Assembly (NCBI GenBank): GCA_000182565.2
Contig: KQ257464.1
Reading direction: 5' to 3' (one strand)
Source: Spizellomyces punctatus DAOM BR117
Lineage: Eukaryota
DNA: 20,000 nucleotides
This document shows, piece by piece, positions 14,972-19,672 of this stretch (positions within the stretch are counted from its first letter, which is position 1; the number at the start of each line of letters is the position of its first letter). The translations under genes were made by a program, and so were the position numbers. The notes beneath the pieces are model-generated. The model did no database searches. It had not been told where the DNA came from and was given only the letters and a program-made list of their open reading frames with translations.

Positions 14972-15272
14972 TGTACGCTACAGGATATTGTGACTGACGT
15001 GATCAGTTGGAGGGCGCTGAAGCCGTTCAGGTGGAAGTGCGCCTTGCATTGCGTCCGTGCTAAGCCTCTTAGGTGGATGGATGAACACATTGATTTGCAA
15101 GAAAACGTGAAAAATAACTACAATCTCTAACTTTCGGATGGTGTCTTCCCCTTCCCCACCAAACCACCCGCCGTCTAGATACGAAAAAATGAATCAAGGT
15201 TTGTTGGTAGTGCGCAACTATATAAAAAAAACATCGCCCCGGAGAACCACGTGTGCAGAGACAATCGCAACC

Positions 15273-16399
15273 TCATAGGATTGTGCATATCTTCTTTTTC
15301 TTCTGCTCGCTTGTACTTAGACCACCATCTTTCTGTTGTCGTATCATTCGAACGACATTATAAAAAGCTCTTTTGTCACATAGATGCCGGAAAGAAACCA
15401 ATGTGTACAGTGAGTAAGAAACGAAGATCCGCCGTCACTTCGACCACGGGCGATATCCAAAAACTACGTACTTGTCAACATTCAAGCAGGTTTTTGCACT
15501 GGTCTCGATAAAATCACATTTCAATCGTCTCGCCATCTGCTGTCCTTCCTCTTTGGAAACTTCACGCTCTGCTAACTTGTCGCACTTATTTCCCACCAGC
15601 ATTAAAGGTACCTGGGTGGCAGACCCAGTTAGCATAATGGCGCATTGTCAACAGACCGAAGCACTAGCGCACACCTTATCCATATCTTTTACCCGCGTGA
15701 TTTGCTGCTTAAATCTCTCCACACGTTCGAAGGTGCTTCGGGACGTTATAGAATATACAAGCAAAAATCCCTCCCCGTCCCGTATCCACTGGTCCCGTAA
15801 CCTGGTTTGGGAACAATTCGAGAGTGTTCATCAACGCCCAGAACCCATTTCGCACGAGCTTAAAGAGACCATTCAAACTTACGCTGTATATTCCTCCTGT
15901 CCCGCTGTATCTAGGACCTCCAGTATACAAGGCAATTCATCGATGACGACCTGCTTCCGATATGAATCTTCTATCGTTGGATCATATGTCTGCGACGGGC
16001 TGATGTTCAATTCAAAAGCTTGTTCCAAAGAGGGTTACAGCTGCAAACCTCACCTCTGTGGATATAAAGTGAGCAGCAATGGAGCCGTAAAGCAGTCAGA
16101 CGGAGCGCATTCTTTTGAAGTTTGGACTTGCATGCCCTAACAGAGCGTTAAACCTTCCACTTACCAACAAAATGGTTCAAGCACAACTATGAGTGACAAG
16201 TTCAGTTGGTACATGTCCAGTGGGGCCAGGTTTACACCCGTGGCTATAACATGAAGTCCTCACCTGTATAGTCAATGCTTAGAAAACGGAGATCAGATCC
16301 CACGACGCACAGGAGAGTAGCAACAATGAAGGGGCCTTTCCTCTTACCTGTCTTTCCCACGCCTCCGTCTCCGAGGACAACCAACCGATATAGAGTCAT
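15273..16399 (-). CDS. RAS2: Ras small GTPase, fungal Ras2/RasB type, 186 aa, 8 exons, C-terminal [13 protein letters not shown]
   Basis: [48 protein letters not shown] and ETSAK motifs. Exons 16399-16348, 16277-16264, 16186-16165, 16055-16054, 15989-15883, 15801-15675, 15611-15472, 15369-15273 sum to 561 nt. Confidence 0.95.
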
Positions 16400-17019
16400 T
16401 GCCTCTCCCCTGACGTTCCGTCCGGTGACGGTAATTGTGGTCCGCGGCGGGGTGTAAATACGTATTAGGGTCAATGAACGTCCGTCCGGCGGGGTTCCTT
16501 GCTTCTGGGCTGAAACCGTGGAGCAGCGGCACAGCGCGTCCAGTTGTCACAATGATCCAGGTTCCAACCTACGTCCAGGTGCCTGTGTCCCGAAGGTTGA
16601 TGTCCTTTCAAACATACAGGGTCGAAATGCGTCAATGCTGAAAGGAAAATAAACGCAAAATGGGAGAAGAAAATGAGTTGTGATTGAAGGACATGAGGCC
16701 TGCTCACTTTGTTCAAAGGCAGGACCACTGAAATAAAAGTAGACAGAATCCCTCATCTGACTGCATGGAAGTGATGATGGGGCCCCTTGCAACATCTGAT
16801 CCAAGGTGCTTGGGGACTTTCATGGCAAAAAAAGTTGCATGTAAAGGGGAAAAGTGCAGATCTCTCAGGGAAGCACACCACTAACAAGAAATCTAAAGCA
16901 GCAAAAAAAGGTCAACAATGTGAAGGTCAATCCATGCCCCAGATACAATTACTGCTCAGAAGTGGCTGAAAAGTAACATAGATAATCACATAAACAGTAG
17001 GACATTACTAACAAGACTT

Positions 17020-17119
17020 NNNNNNNNNNNNNNNNNNNNNNNNNNNNNNNNNNNNNNNNNNNNNNNNNNNNNNNNNNNNNNNNNNNNNNNNNNNNNNNNN
17101 NNNNNNNNNNNNNNNNNNN
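17020..17119. other. Assembly gap (100 N, probably a placeholder of unknown size)
   Basis: Run of exactly 100 N. Confidence 0.99.
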
Positions 17120-17855
17120 TCTAAGGTGGTGCTACCATGTAACAGGCTAGCAGGTGTAGCGAATGACTCTGGTAAACTTGGTTCACTCAAAGGCATCAGG
17201 TGACCATGATTGAGGTTTCCTCATTTACAACCTAAGCTTCGAAACACCTGAAATCATGTTTAGTTCTGGACTACACCAGCACAGCATGAAGGATACATTA
17301 CACGGCCATGATCGATCATGGCAATTGTTGGAAACAGGGAACTCAGATGCTGCCACCCTAATGAAGGTTACAGACACTAGTGTAGACATTACCATAGTGT
17401 ATTCTTGTATAAAAGAAAATTAAAAACAGAGATAACTCACAGCAGCAGCTAGACAGCCAGCCACGACTAGGCACCCAAAAAGGACAAGTCCAAGCAAAGC
17501 TAACTAGGTTAACAGGAACCCAACTGCACACACTGACAGACTGATCACCCAAAGGTTGTGCTGCAAATCCTGCTTGGTTCACTAACTGAATCTCCTTGCC
17601 TCTTGCCTCCAAATTCCCTGTTGGAAACCCCCTTTTAGGATTCTGAGACTATTCTGACAAGCACAGAACCTCATGATCCTGCTTGACCCAGTCTTAAATC
17701 TGCTACACAGGGACAAGAAGACAACAGAAAACTAGGGAAGACTTGGTTACTACTTGTTATTTTCCTCCTTTGAGGGGCCTCAGAGAGGTCCTCTTTTTAT
17801 AGACAAAGGGGCTGACAAATGCTATATCCTAATTACCCAATCAGATCTCACCCAC
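17120..17855 (-). mobile_element. Partial 5' LTR plus PBS of an LTR retrotransposon (family A, copy 1), interrupted by a solo LTR; internal region runs into the gap
   Basis: 17120-17154 and 17712-17855 are the reverse complement of about 19654-19828. On the minus strand the LTR ends ...TGTTACA (17138) and is followed by TGGTAGCACCAC. Confidence 0.8.
17155..17707 (+). mobile_element. 553-bp solo LTR (family B) with TGTAGC...GCTACA termini and 4-bp CAGG target-site duplication
   Basis: TG..CA ends with 6-bp terminal inverted repeats. CAGG at 17151-17154 and 17708-17711. The paralogous empty site at about 19794 has one CAGG equivalent. TATAAAAG at 17408 suggests plus orientation. Confidence 0.8.
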
Positions 17856-18648
17856 CCACCAAGTGATAGTACAAAGCAAGGTTGCCATGGTTTATGAACA
17901 TCCCAACCTTCCTAACTGTTTGGGTCTCTATGAACAATATCTGCATATTACTCTCTTTGTTGATACCCATCTTTGTGCTTGAATCTATGACTCCCAGTCC
18001 TCTGCAATATATAGAATAATACTTGTACCTCAGAAGCAGAAGCAGTGTCTACTACATATATACTACATGGTACCTTGTGGCACTAGGTGGTGGTGTAAAA
18101 TACTCAGGTGGTAGAGTCTTACAGTTAGGAAGTTCTGGAAGTGCAGGCAACAACAGGGTACATTGGTTAACATGAAGTTCTTAAAATTGAAGTATAGCAA
18201 TGTTATATTGAAAATTATAATTGCAGCAATTGAAGTATAGCAATATTATATTGGAAATTATAATTGCAGCACTAATGGTGATTATGTAACATTATATTAC
18301 AATATTATTGAGTCTGGGCACCCCTGCTTTGATTAAAGTCAGATATGAGGAAATTACTCCTACACAGATCAGCAGAATGTAGGTGCATATAGGAATAAGT
18401 AAAAAGGGCAGATTATGCTGGCAGCCAATATTTGTGAACATAAGGCTGTATATGGCTGAAAATGAAATGGACATATATATCATAATCTGAAGAGCAGAAA
18501 AACAAACCCATGCAGAGGGAGGCTGAAAAATACCTGGTATAAATGTAAAAAGAACTTTTTGTATACTATATATAATATATAAGTATTATCCCACCAAGTG
18601 ATAGTACAAAGCAAGGTTGCCATGGTTTATGAACATCCCAAGCCTTCC
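17855..18648. repeat. 52-bp perfect direct repeat (17855-17906 and 18590-18641)
   Basis: CCCACCAAGTGATAGTACAAAGCAAGGTTGCCATGGTTTATGAACATCCCAA occurs twice, each followed by (G)CCTTCC. Confidence 0.95.
18185..18271. repeat. 43-bp tandem duplication (2 copies)
   Basis: AATTGAAGTATAGCAATRTTATATTGRAAATTATAATTGCAGC x2 with two A/G differences. Confidence 0.95.
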
Positions 18649-19522
18649 AGGATTGAGTGTTGTTGGGGAAAGTCAAGATATAGGTGTTACCTACAACTAG
18701 ACTGGGTGCACCTGAGAGGTGGATAGCCATGTTAGAAGCTATGCCATCACTAGAGAATGTTTCTGGGGACTTTGTGTCAAAAGAGCAGTGAAAGAGTTGT
18801 ATTACAGAAAGGAAAAAATGGGGTCCTAAATATAGTACAGATCACATGATGACAACCTGATTTCAACCTCTAATTTTGGGCGCATAAAGCAACTAACTAA
18901 GAAAATGTTTTGACAAGCTTGTAGCGCGGATTTAGGGCTTTCTAGAACCATCTTGGTTTTGTTGATAAGTTAATAATTCACTAAGTTATTCAAGGTACCA
19001 TCCCATGGCAACTTCAATGAAATCAATCAATTAATTCCAACAAGTGTAGCAGCCAAGGATCAGTGTTCTAGGTGTTAGGCTCAATAGGGGATAACCCTTG
19101 ATACCTCTCCCCAATGATGTCAGCTTCAAATCTGGTTCTTAACAGCCAGACCAACTTCCATGTGGACCTACCCTTCATAGCCCTCCCATGACATAAGTGC
19201 TGTCTCACCTTAGCCCAACAACAGAAACCACTTAGCAGAGAGCAATTACATATCAGACACAGTGTTGAGATTCAGGCTTAAACCATGCTGTATGATCTAT
19301 AAAACATGTGAGATCATGCTGTGTGACAGAATTCTTCTGTCAGTGCTATGGTTATACTAGTTAGATGTGGTTCCAAACTAGTGGTCACATGACTTTGCTG
19401 ATGGTATCAGCATTCATTTGACCAGAATTAGATAAATAAGCAGATTTAGCCATTTCTGGCTAAATTAGATGAGTATTCTGACACACAGGCATCTGCCCCT
19501 TTCAATCAAGTGGCACAGTGTA

Positions 19523-19672
19523 TTTAGGATGACTTGCCTCACTTGTGATTGGCTCTAAATGGTGCAATAGGCTGACAAATAGTTTAGGATGACATGTATG
19601 AGGTCTGATTGGTTGCAAATGGTGCAATAGGCTGACAAATAGTTTAGGATGATGTGGGTGAGATCTGATTGG
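19523..19672. repeat. 60-bp tandem repeat (about 2.5 copies) in the presumed U3 region of the LTR
   Basis: Unit TTTAGGATGA...TGATTGG...AAATGGTGCAATAGGCTGACAAATAG repeats with period 60. Confidence 0.92.

What the first reader, a model, noticed from the sequence alone, without database searches (positions are those of the whole stretch)
16054..16055. Obligatory 2-nucleotide micro-exon (AG) in the Ras2 switch-I region
Seen: exon 3 ends ...CAT TTT GTT G|GTAAGT (phase 1, 16165), but the next large exon starts CGCAG|ACA TAT GAT CCA (phase 0, 15989) with no adjacent AG to restore phase. Inside the intervening 175 nt the minus strand reads ...TTTATATCCACAG|AG|GTGAGG, an acceptor and a donor 2 nt apart. 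Including it gives G+AG = Glu, the canonical fungal Ras2 [14 protein letters not shown], and a 561-nt CDS. Skipping it frameshifts the gene. It follows exons of only 14 and 22 nt. Inference: this needs pure intron-definition or sequential splicing and could act as an on/off (NMD) switch. Gene predictors would likely mis-annotate it.
Basis: partly seen in the sequence, partly recalled or inferred. Interest (0 to 1): 0.75.

Follow-up and report, generated by a model that had tools for sequence, protein, structure and literature searches.

The report
Two-base exon in chytrid Ras2 gene
A Ras2 signalling gene of a soil chytrid fungus reads correctly only if two letters (AG) lying alone between two introns are spliced in as a tiny exon, a rare but already described kind of gene structure that annotation programs often miss.

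Summary
On the minus strand lies an 8-exon Ras2 gene (186 aa, 561-nt CDS). Its exons are 52, 14, 22, 2, 107, 127, 140 and 97 nt, and all 7 introns are GT-AG. The 22-nt exon ends in phase 1 at 16165 and the 107-nt exon starts in phase 0 at 15989. CAG|AG|GTGAGG at 16055-16054 is the only splice solution found that gives the conserved HFVETYDPT. A site like this turns up by chance in 1.6-3.6% of shuffles.

An unrelated AT-rich fungal metagenome locus, L049, has the same layout: a 22-nt exon, a phase-1 donor, TAG|AG|GTATAA, and a phase-0 acceptor. Chance there is 0.8-2.0%.

The window encodes the public Spizellomyces punctatus model P0002, which skips three exons. By my reading, 37 of 74 listed relatives' models are defective at this spot.

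No RNA read covered the junction, so inclusion of the AG is inferred, not shown. Two-nt exons are already documented in fungi (57 in Coprinopsis, PMC12230235). The NMD-switch idea has no support.

Verdict: a real, probably ancient micro-exon, and a new member of a known kind.

The parts
16348..16399 (-). Exon 1 (52 nt): ATG at 16399, [17 protein letters not shown] plus 1 base (P-loop). Ends in phase 1.
   Evidence: The N-terminus matches P0003 and P0007.
16278..16347 (-). Intron 1, 70 nt, GTAAGA...CTAAG
16264..16277 (-). Exon 2, 14 nt (completes Ala, then LTIQ)
16187..16263 (-). Intron 2, 77 nt, GTGAGG...CATAG. It has no YTNAY motif; it carries CTGAAC near its 3' end.
16165..16186 (-). Exon 3, 22 nt (LCLNHFV plus G). 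Ends in phase 1.
   Evidence: L049 bases 74-95 form an exon of the same length and phase.
16056..16164 (-). Upstream flanking intron, 109 nt, GTAAGT...CCACAG. CTCAC has its A 14 nt before the 3' splice site; CTGAC lies 40 nt before it.
16054..16055 (-). Two-nt micro-exon AG. It supplies bases 2-3 of the Glu codon 30 (G+AG).
   Evidence: L049 bases 183-184 are the counterpart.
15990..16053 (-). Downstream flanking intron, 64 nt, GTGAGG...CGCAG. The donor hexamer is identical to that of intron 2. It has no YTNAY motif; TTGAAC lies 16 nt before the 3' splice site.
   Evidence: L050 and L053 have an intron at the same position, phase 0 after the Glu codon.
15883..15989 (-). Exon 5, 107 nt ([13 protein letters not shown]...DTAGQEEYT plus 2 bases). 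Starts in phase 0.
   Evidence: Pfam Ras, 34.6 bits.
15802..15882 (-). Intron, 81 nt, GTAAGT...ACCAG
15675..15801 (-). Exon 6, 127 nt ([18 protein letters not shown]...KDMDK)
   Evidence: Pfam Ras, 33.1 bits.
15612..15674 (-). Intron, 63 nt, GTGTGC...CCCAG, with CTAAC 17 nt before the 3' splice site
   Evidence: RNA depth was 0 over 15630-15672, against 3-6 in the flanking exons.
15472..15611 (-). Exon 7, 140 nt ([11 protein letters not shown]...ETSAK...)
   Evidence: Pfam Ras, 49.5 bits. It is 100% identical to P0001 and P0002.
15370..15471 (-). Intron, 102 nt, GTACGT...AAAAG
15273..15369 (-). Exon 8, 97 nt of coding sequence, ending in the CAAX box CTIL and stop TGA
   Evidence: RNA reads pile up here (depth 16-41).
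15990..16018 (-). A 29-nt stretch of the downstream intron that the public model P0002 reads as coding ([10 protein letters not shown]). It does so by joining exon 1 to the AAG acceptor ending at 16019.

Best explanation
The window carries the Ras2 gene of Spizellomyces punctatus, or a near-identical strain. Codon 30 (Glu, equivalent to KRas D30) is split three ways. Its first base ends the 22-nt exon, its last two bases (AG, 16055-16054) form an exon of their own, and the next codon opens the 107-nt exon.

Two ordinary short GT-AG introns of 109 and 64 nt flank the AG. Each is recognised across the intron (intron definition). The 3' splice site of the first and the 5' splice site of the second are only 2 nt apart, so the two introns are most likely removed one after the other. 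The base at -3 of the downstream donor is G both before and after removal of the upstream intron, so either order leaves that donor unchanged.

Inclusion is constitutive and needed for a functional protein. The structure is old: it comes from two neighbouring intron positions that both survive in this lineage and in at least one distant AT-rich fungus.

Shown: the sequence anatomy, the uniqueness of the solution, the recurrence in L049, and the mis-annotation. Inferred: actual inclusion in mRNA, the order and mode of splicing, and the age.
For: (1) Anatomy. All 7 introns are GT-AG and 63-109 nt long. Read as one intron, the interval would be 175 nt, 1.6 times the longest other intron.

(2) The flanking donors are GTAAGT and GTGAGG. 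The second is the same hexamer as the donor of intron 2, which is not in doubt.

(3) Only the AG exon restores HFVETYDPT, out of 6 single-intron and 34 two-intron in-frame solutions.

(4) The V-x-x-Y spacing with Glu first holds in 57 of 57 contiguous metagenome loci and in the gap-free KRas alignment.

(5) L049 has 28% GC and is closest to Gigasporaceae proteins, at 88%. It has a 22-nt exon ending GTT-G|GTATGT, an 87-nt intron, TAG|AG|GTATAA, a 95-nt intron and TTTTAG|GAATATGAT. Such a site arises by chance in 0.8-2.0% of shuffles there and 1.6-3.6% here. The product of the two ranges is roughly 1e-4 to 7e-4.

(6) The position of the downstream intron is shared by L050 and L053.

(7) Mis-built public models leave footprints of the same phase clash.
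- Intron-derived text ending in Glu just before TYDPT: P0001 Spizellomyces 'palustris', P0005 Geranomyces, P0027 Umbelopsis.
- HF|TYDPT with V and E dropped: P0056, P0060, P0068, P0115.
- HFVG read-through of a phase-1 GT: P0008, P0009, P0028, P0051, P0080.

(8) The gene is expressed. Reads on the gene's strand pile up over the last exon and its 3' flank, at depth 16-41.
Against: - No RNA read or contig crossed 15802-16360, so the mRNA junction was not seen.
- Even a cDNA reading GTTG-AG-ACA could not by itself tell this AG from the AG of the CGCAG acceptor.
- The 64-nt intron has no YTNAY branch motif. Neither does intron 2.
- Only 1 of 76 informative metagenome loci (L049) shares the structure at DNA level. 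The organism behind L049 is not known.
- The footprints in protein models are indirect. The third codon bases that would prove an AG acceptor cannot be read from protein.
- No independent DNA read covered 15892-16480. The X5 contig stops at 15891.
Confidence: 0.8

Rival explanations
1. There is one 173-nt intron (16164-15992) with a non-canonical 3' end. The spliceosome cuts two bases early, so the AG of CGCAG (15991-15990) stays in the mRNA and supplies the Glu codon. The internal AGAGGT is a coincidence.
For: It gives the same mRNA as the micro-exon, so no cDNA alone excludes it (reading). The internal site could arise by chance in 1.6-3.6% of shuffles.
Against: The intron would end in GC here and in TT in L049. 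That matches no known intron class (GT-AG, GC-AG, AT-AC; established knowledge) and is not conserved between the two loci. It does not explain why both loci carry YAG|AG|GTR at intron-sized distances from both ends. It also does not explain why the interval is about twice the usual intron length.
Confidence: 0.04
2. The real product uses one of the canonical in-frame single introns. One candidate is TTT|GTTGGT...CGCAG, giving HF-TYDPT with V and E missing. The other is G|GTAAGT...ACAAG, giving [12 protein letters not shown]. The micro-exon form does not exist or is minor.
For: Both are GT-AG and keep the frame. Predictors chose the first form in four other species (P0056, P0060, P0068, P0115) and the AAG acceptor in the S. 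punctatus model P0002.
Against: Neither form is seen in any of the 57 contiguous loci, which all keep V-E-x-Y, or in KRas. GTTGGT is a weak donor lying 4 nt from a consensus GTAAGT. The insertion or deletion falls at residues 29-30, next to F28, in the nucleotide-binding and effector region of Ras (established knowledge). The 10-residue insert is intron sequence and has no counterpart in L049.
Confidence: 0.05
3. The locus is a decaying pseudogene, or the assembly has a 1-2 base error near the junction. On either view the phase clash is not biological.
For: No independent DNA read covered 15892-16480. The window has an N run at 17020-17119, so the assembly is not finished.
Against: All other exons are intact, and the model shares 173 of 186 residues with the Phlyctochytrium protein. 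The gene is expressed. The same phase clash occurs in an independent organism, L049, and is implied by defective models in several genera.
Confidence: 0.03
4. This is an add-on to the micro-exon reading rather than an exclusive rival. The tandem AGs (CAG-AG) act as a regulated switch. Use of the second AG as acceptor makes a zero-length recursive site (AG|GT). After the second splice it yields GTTG|ACA, a frameshifted mRNA with an early stop that is degraded.
For: The sequence permits it. Skipping gives a stop five codons on.
Against: No RNA data exist at the site. There is no sign of regulation. By established knowledge, the first AG after the branch point is normally chosen. A housekeeping signalling GTPase has no evident need for such a switch.
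Confidence: 0.08

Closest known systems
Exons of 1-3 nt in Coprinopsis cinerea, found with long reads (PMC12230235; passages read)
   Same: That paper reports 57 exons of 2 nt in 50 genes, plus 13 of 1 nt and 27 of 3 nt, in a fungus with short introns. Omitting them often creates premature stops, and they break gene models.
   Different: Those are supported by full-length cDNA; this one is not. I could not see whether a ras gene is among them, because supplements are closed. That fungus is a basidiomycete and this one is a chytrid. Conservation of single cases across phyla is not mentioned in the passages I read.
One-nt exon in Fusarium CYP621A P450 genes (PMC12940212; abstract and passages read)
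   Same: A phase clash inside a conserved motif. An 'intron' about twice the usual length. An internal AG-N-GT conserved among orthologues. Missed by automated annotation.
   Different: 1 nt versus 2 nt, and P450 versus Ras. That case has read-archive transcript support and 20 orthologues aligned at DNA level. Here there are two DNA-level cases and no transcript.
One-nt exon in Arabidopsis APC11 (PMC4674806; abstract and passages read)
   Same: A constitutive ultra-short exon. The authors argue for intron definition, with the two flanking introns removed one after the other.
   Different: That case is in a plant and was tested with reporter constructs and point mutations. Nothing was tested experimentally here.
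Spliceosomal twin introns (stwintrons) and zero-nt recursive splice sites (the first recalled, from no call; the second from the abstract listing of bioRxiv 10.1101/006163)
   Same: Two splicing reactions at abutting sites inside what looks like one long intron, which have to occur in sequence.
   Different: In those cases nothing is left in the mRNA between the two reactions. Here 2 nt stay and are coding.

Membership tests
Ras family small GTPase (Pfam PF00071), fungal Ras2 type | A match to the Ras profile above the curated cut-off | tested here: met
   Exons 5, 6 and 7 alone score 34.6, 33.1 and 49.5 bits against a cut-off of 21.6. The orthologue P0003 scores 191.7 bits.
Ras family small GTPase (Pfam PF00071), fungal Ras2 type | G1 P-loop GxxxxGK[ST], switch-I Thr in YDPT, G3 DTAGQ, G4 NKCD, G5 SAK, and a C-terminal CAAX box. 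The motif names are recalled; the strings were read from the model. | tested here: met
   [31 protein letters not shown] and CTIL are all present in the 186-aa translation.
Ras family small GTPase (Pfam PF00071), fungal Ras2 type | Closest relatives are proteins that their sources name Ras2 | tested here: met
   173 of 186 residues are identical to P0003, 'small G-protein Ras2' of Phlyctochytrium arcticum. The name is the source's and was not tested.
Ultra-short (3 nt or less) constitutive micro-exon between two spliceosomal introns | An AG acceptor directly upstream and a GT donor directly downstream of the filler | tested here: met
   CAG|AG|GTGAGG at 16058-16048.
Ultra-short (3 nt or less) constitutive micro-exon between two spliceosomal introns | Both flanking introns are of normal size for the gene and have plausible branch sites | tested here: inconclusive
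   They are 109 and 64 nt, against 63-102 nt for the other five introns. The upstream one has CTCAC 14 nt from its 3' end. The downstream one has no YTNAY, only TTGAAC, as does the undoubted intron 2.
Ultra-short (3 nt or less) constitutive micro-exon between two spliceosomal introns | The filler restores the frame and a conserved residue, and no ordinary splice does | tested here: met
   It is the only one of 40 enumerated in-frame solutions that gives V-E-T. Glu is invariant in 57 of 57 contiguous loci.
Ultra-short (3 nt or less) constitutive micro-exon between two spliceosomal introns | Conserved in orthologous genomic loci | tested here: met
   L049 has the same 22-nt exon, phase-1 donor, TAG|AG|GTATAA and phase-0 acceptor. 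It is 1 of 76 informative loci; the other 75 have one intron or none here. There are indirect footprints in protein models of other genera.
Ultra-short (3 nt or less) constitutive micro-exon between two spliceosomal introns | The transcript contains the filler, and partly spliced intermediates use the internal sites | tested here: inconclusive
   In the RNA run X10, 131 reads were laid and none fell between 15802 and 16360. No joints were listed.
Stwintron / zero-nt recursive splice site | Nothing remains in the mRNA between the two nested or abutting splicing reactions | tested here: not met
   Without the 2 nt the frame breaks, giving HFVDI and a stop. The 2 nt must stay.

The most novel reading that the evidence does not exclude
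The 2-nt exon is not a quirk of one chytrid. It is an ancient feature of fungal Ras2 genes, inherited from the common ancestor of Chytridiomycota and the Mucoromycota/Glomeromycotina lineage, and perhaps still present in some Basidiomycota (the footprint in the Schizophyllum amplum model). It has been kept for hundreds of millions of years. Other lineages lost one flanking intron (Eurotiomycete-like L050 and L053) or both.

That would make it one of the smallest deeply conserved coding exons known. It would also explain why about half of the public Ras2 models of early-diverging fungi are wrong at the same spot.
Probability: 0.5. Interest if true: 0.55.

Novelty: new member of a known kind. 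Interest (0 to 1): 0.4.

Why it matters
Ras2 is a central signalling switch. The public model for this locus (P0002) lacks helix alpha-1 and the start of switch I. By my reading, 37 of the 74 listed relatives' models that contain YDPT are defective between the P-loop and YDPT. Comparative and structural work on early-diverging fungi therefore inherits wrong proteins.

The case gives annotators a concrete test locus for micro-exon-aware gene finders.

If the deep conservation holds, it is also a clean natural system for asking how two spliceosomes deal with splice sites 2 nt apart.

Tried and rejected
RNA evidence
- The look-up of sequencing runs gave one same-species RNA run, X10.
- Laid on 15200-16480, X10 proved 3'-biased with reads up to 60 nt. 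It gave 131 reads, none over 15802-16360, and no joints.
- The X1 contig touches only 15200-15265.
- The X2 contig (15306-15474) runs through an intron, so it is DNA or unspliced RNA.
- The X5 DNA contig ends at 15891, so the assembly near the junction could not be checked.

Other sources
- No whole genome is held for this window.
- Scans for more relatives found no relative in genome contigs (17 pattern matches, none confirmed) or in viral contigs (32 pattern matches, none confirmed).
- The single metagenome scan kept only the best 80 of 554 relatives. Most of these are Dikarya-like and lack the structure.
- L001 looked like a possible cDNA of L049 but is only 82-84% identical in nucleotides, so it says nothing about L049's splice.

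Papers
- Searches for a 2-nt exon by six phrasings found 4 papers holding a term (3 listed); judging by the titles and abstract starts of the 3 listed, none concerns fungi.
- Spizellomyces with micro-exon/Ras2 (first 15 of 422 hits listed) and micro-exon + Ras GTPase + fungus (0 papers) found no description of this exon.
- Subscription journals and supplements were not searchable.

A caution on my own counts
- My first regex classification of protein models called 45 'aberrant'. Eight of those keep canonical spacing and only failed the regex (P0092, P0097, P0099, P0101, P0109, P0113, P0116, P0117).
- The corrected count is 37 defective, 31 canonical and 6 truncated, of 74 with YDPT. A further 46 of the 120 are fragments without YDPT.
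- A first locus classification lost loci to an over-strict regex and was replaced.
- The first enumeration of alternatives returned 0 because of a filter error and was redone.

Full report
**What is in the sequence**

Reading the minus strand of 15300-16800 and locating the boundaries gives a gene of eight exons:
- 16399-16348 (52 nt)
- 16277-16264 (14 nt)
- 16186-16165 (22 nt)
- 16055-16054 (2 nt, AG)
- 15989-15883 (107 nt)
- 15801-15675 (127 nt)
- 15611-15472 (140 nt)
- 15369-15273 (97 nt, ending in TGA)

Joined by coordinates, they translate to a 186-residue protein (561 nt including the stop) with the Ras motifs and a CAAX end. The seven introns are 70, 77, 109, 64, 81, 63 and 102 nt long, and all are GT...AG. 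Without the AG the frame shifts and stops after HFVDI. Every string and coordinate in the finding is correct.

**Whose gene it is**

A search with the 140-nt exon found 389 relatives among 442 candidates, of which 120 are listed. The two 100%-identical hits are from Spizellomyces: P0002 from S. punctatus DAOM BR117 and P0001 from S. sp. 'palustris'.

From TYDPT to the C-terminus my model equals P0002 in 156 of 156 residues. P0002's N-terminal extension is the in-frame translation of the window upstream of the ATG. Its odd [10 protein letters not shown] is the translation of window 16018-15990. So P0002 was built on this very locus, or on a near-identical one. The organism is a chytrid of the order Spizellomycetales.

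The model shares 173 of 186 residues with the Phlyctochytrium protein that its source names Ras2. Pfam's Ras profile is met by single exons. The alignment to KRas has no gap through the first 120 residues, so the split Glu is position 30, equivalent to KRas D30. By recalled numbering that is the N-terminal edge of switch I.

**Is the AG more than chance?**

I shuffled the 175-nt interval 20000 times, keeping dinucleotide content, the outer donor and the outer acceptor, and requiring 40 nt or more on either side.
- A site AG|AG-or-AA|GT with a purine at +3 appeared in 313 shuffles (1.6%).
- With GT alone it appeared in 724 (3.6%).
- With any filler the figures were 10% and 24%.

I then enumerated the alternatives. 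Six single GT/GC-AG introns keep the frame into PTIEDSY. They give [20 protein letters not shown] (V and E lost), [19 protein letters not shown] and VGKWKT. Of 34 two-intron solutions with an inner exon of 1-30 nt, only the AG exon yields HFVETYDPT.

The flanking donors are GTAAGT and GTGAGG. The latter is the same hexamer as the donor of the undoubted intron 2. Read as one intron, the interval would be 1.6 times the longest other intron of the gene. The Fusarium study used the same argument (PMC12940212).

One weak point: the 64-nt intron has no YTNAY motif, only TTGAAC 16 nt from its end. Intron 2 is the same, with CTGAAC.

**Relatives at DNA level**

One metagenome scan with an alignment of the 127-nt exon's peptide (A1) matched 554 relatives, and the best 80 were kept. 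I classified them at the V...Y site.
- 57 are contiguous, always with two residues between V and Y and Glu first (53 ET, 2 EA, 1 ES, 1 EE).
- 15 have one intron after the Thr codon.
- 1 has an intron inside the Thr codon (L036).
- 2 have one intron after the Glu codon (L050, L053). Their sequence looks like a Eurotiomycete rasB gene (my reading). This is exactly the position of the window's 64-nt intron.
- 4 end before the site (L019, L033, L037, L072).
- 1, L049, has the window's problem and the window's solution. It has a 22-nt exon ending GTT-G followed by GTATGT, an 87-nt intron ending ATATAG, then AG, then GTATAA opening a 95-nt intron that ends TTTTAG, then GAATATGATCC. The result is V-E-E-Y, a variant also seen contiguous in L077.

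L049 has 28% GC. Its exons are closest to Gigasporaceae proteins (88%), and it shares other but not all intron positions with the window. Chance for its internal site is 0.8-2.0%. The product of the two loci's ranges is about 1e-4 to 7e-4.

**Relatives at protein-model level (indirect)**

Reading the 120 listed proteins, 74 contain YDPT. Of these, 31 have the canonical spacing, 6 are fragments that start at or just before it, and 37 are defective between the P-loop and YDPT. Among the ten Spizellomycetales models (P0001-P0010), 3 are canonical, 1 is a correct fragment and 6 are defective.

Several defects are what a predictor would do when faced with a phase-1 donor and a phase-0 acceptor.
- V and E dropped (HF|TYDPT) in Phycomyces, Radiomyces, Podila and Schizophyllum amplum.
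- Read-through of G|GT (HFVG...) in Powellomyces (two models), Calcarisporiella, Actinomortierella and Linnemannia.
- The 22+2 nt skipped (ALTIQ|TYDPT) in Rhizophlyctis, Phascolomyces and Clydaea.
- Unrelated text that ends in Glu right before TYDPT in S. 'palustris', Geranomyces and Umbelopsis. That is, a donor placed directly after a Glu codon whose upstream neighbour is not exon 3.

P0001's text (…AHFISTE) is the translation of the window's own pre-acceptor sequence with three changes further upstream. So the acceptor-AG-donor stretch is conserved, at the protein level, in the sister species.

P0046 is an uninterrupted ORF across a whole Umbelopsis-like gene. It enters the 107-nt-exon homologue one base out of frame, after an interval of 217 nt. 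It reads ...CLAPIEVN... 129 nt after the exon-3 G, which is compatible with ATAG|AG|GTNAAY. The third codon bases cannot be read from protein, so these are leads and not proof.

**RNA**

The only same-species RNA run (X10) gave 131 short reads. They lie almost all on the gene's strand and pile up on the last exon and its 3' flank (depth 16-41). A few fall in exons 6 and 7, none in the 63-nt intron, and none at all between 15802 and 16360. No joints were listed. So the gene is expressed, but the junction was not observed.

There is a further caveat. Every intron ends in AG, so a cDNA reading GTTG-AG-ACA cannot by itself say which AG it carries. What excludes the 'early cut' rival is the following:
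- the missing intron class (the intron would end GC here and TT in L049);
- the recurrence of the internal site in both loci;
- experimentally, partly spliced intermediates or a relative with AA as filler.

**How it most likely works**

This section is inference. There are two short introns, each paired across itself. The upstream 3' splice site and the downstream 5' splice site are 2 nt apart, so the two reactions cannot share the site at once and proceed one after the other. The authors of the Arabidopsis 1-nt exon reached the same view (PMC4674806). The base at -3 of the downstream donor is G whether or not the upstream intron has gone, so either order is possible.

The acceptor is a tandem CAG-AG. 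If the second AG were used, the site would become a zero-length recursive site and the final mRNA would be the frameshifted one.

**Origin**

This is also inference. Within six bases the relatives show four intron positions: phase 1 in the Glu codon, after Glu, inside Thr, and after Thr. The micro-exon is the state in which the first two coexist. It is shared by a chytrid and a Gigasporaceae-like fungus, so the simplest reading is an old structure with later losses.

**What is known**

- Two-nt exons are on record in fungi: 57 in 50 Coprinopsis genes from long reads (PMC12230235, passages).
- A 1-nt exon is described in Fusarium CYP621A (PMC12940212, abstract and passages) and in Arabidopsis APC11 (PMC4674806).
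- Pervasive mis-annotation of micro-exons is documented in plants (PMC8831610, abstract only).
- I found no paper on a Ras micro-exon in fungi. Subscription journals and supplements could not be searched.

**Verdict**

- The micro-exon is very probably real (0.8).
- It is a new member of a known kind.
- Its interest lies in its likely age and in the systematic damage it does to public Ras2 models.

Noticed in passing
window 15990-16018 and 16348-16520 (minus strand): The public S. punctatus protein P0002 (219 aa, marked partial by its source) is built on this locus. It starts upstream of the true ATG in what is probably the 5' UTR. It joins exon 1 to an AAG acceptor inside the 64-nt intron, so it lacks ALTIQLCLNHFVE and carries [10 protein letters not shown] instead.
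   Followed up: yes
L005, L017, L021, L022, L036, L045, L050, L052-L056, L058, L066, L068, L075, L076, L078 at the V...Y site: Within six bases (codons 30-31) fungal Ras2 loci show four different intron positions: phase 1 in Glu, after Glu, inside Thr, and after Thr. This looks like a small hot spot of intron gain, loss or sliding.
   Followed up: partly
P0046 (433 aa, from a read-archive assembly contig): An ORF with no stop runs across an entire intron-containing Ras2 gene of an Umbelopsis-like fungus. It passes through exon 2 and the YDPT exon out of frame. That is improbable by chance, and it probably surfaced because the search selected long ORFs.
   Followed up: partly
window 16347/16348 versus L050 about 539, L053 about 1169, and P0046: The first intron sits in phase 1 inside codon 18 in the window. 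In the Eurotiomycete-like loci and in P0046 it sits in phase 0 after Lys16. The 14-nt exon is therefore 18 nt or fused elsewhere.
   Followed up: no
window 17020-17119 and 17000-19000: There is an assembly gap of 100 N just upstream of the gene. An AT-rich stretch follows (GC 0.36-0.39, against about 0.47 elsewhere), with two short tandem repeats at 18185-18271 and 19546-19672.
   Followed up: no
window 15472-16140, plus strand: A 222-codon mechanical ORF lies antisense to the Ras2 gene, spanning several of its exons and introns. There is no evidence that it is a gene.
   Followed up: no
window 15306-15474: Run X2, guessed to be RNA, holds a 169-nt contig identical to the window that runs straight through the 102-nt last intron. 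It is therefore DNA or unspliced RNA, from a sample labelled as a different organism.
   Followed up: no
window 15231: A>C in 4 of 27 RNA reads of X10, in the 3' flank of the gene. This may be a strain difference or an error.
   Followed up: no
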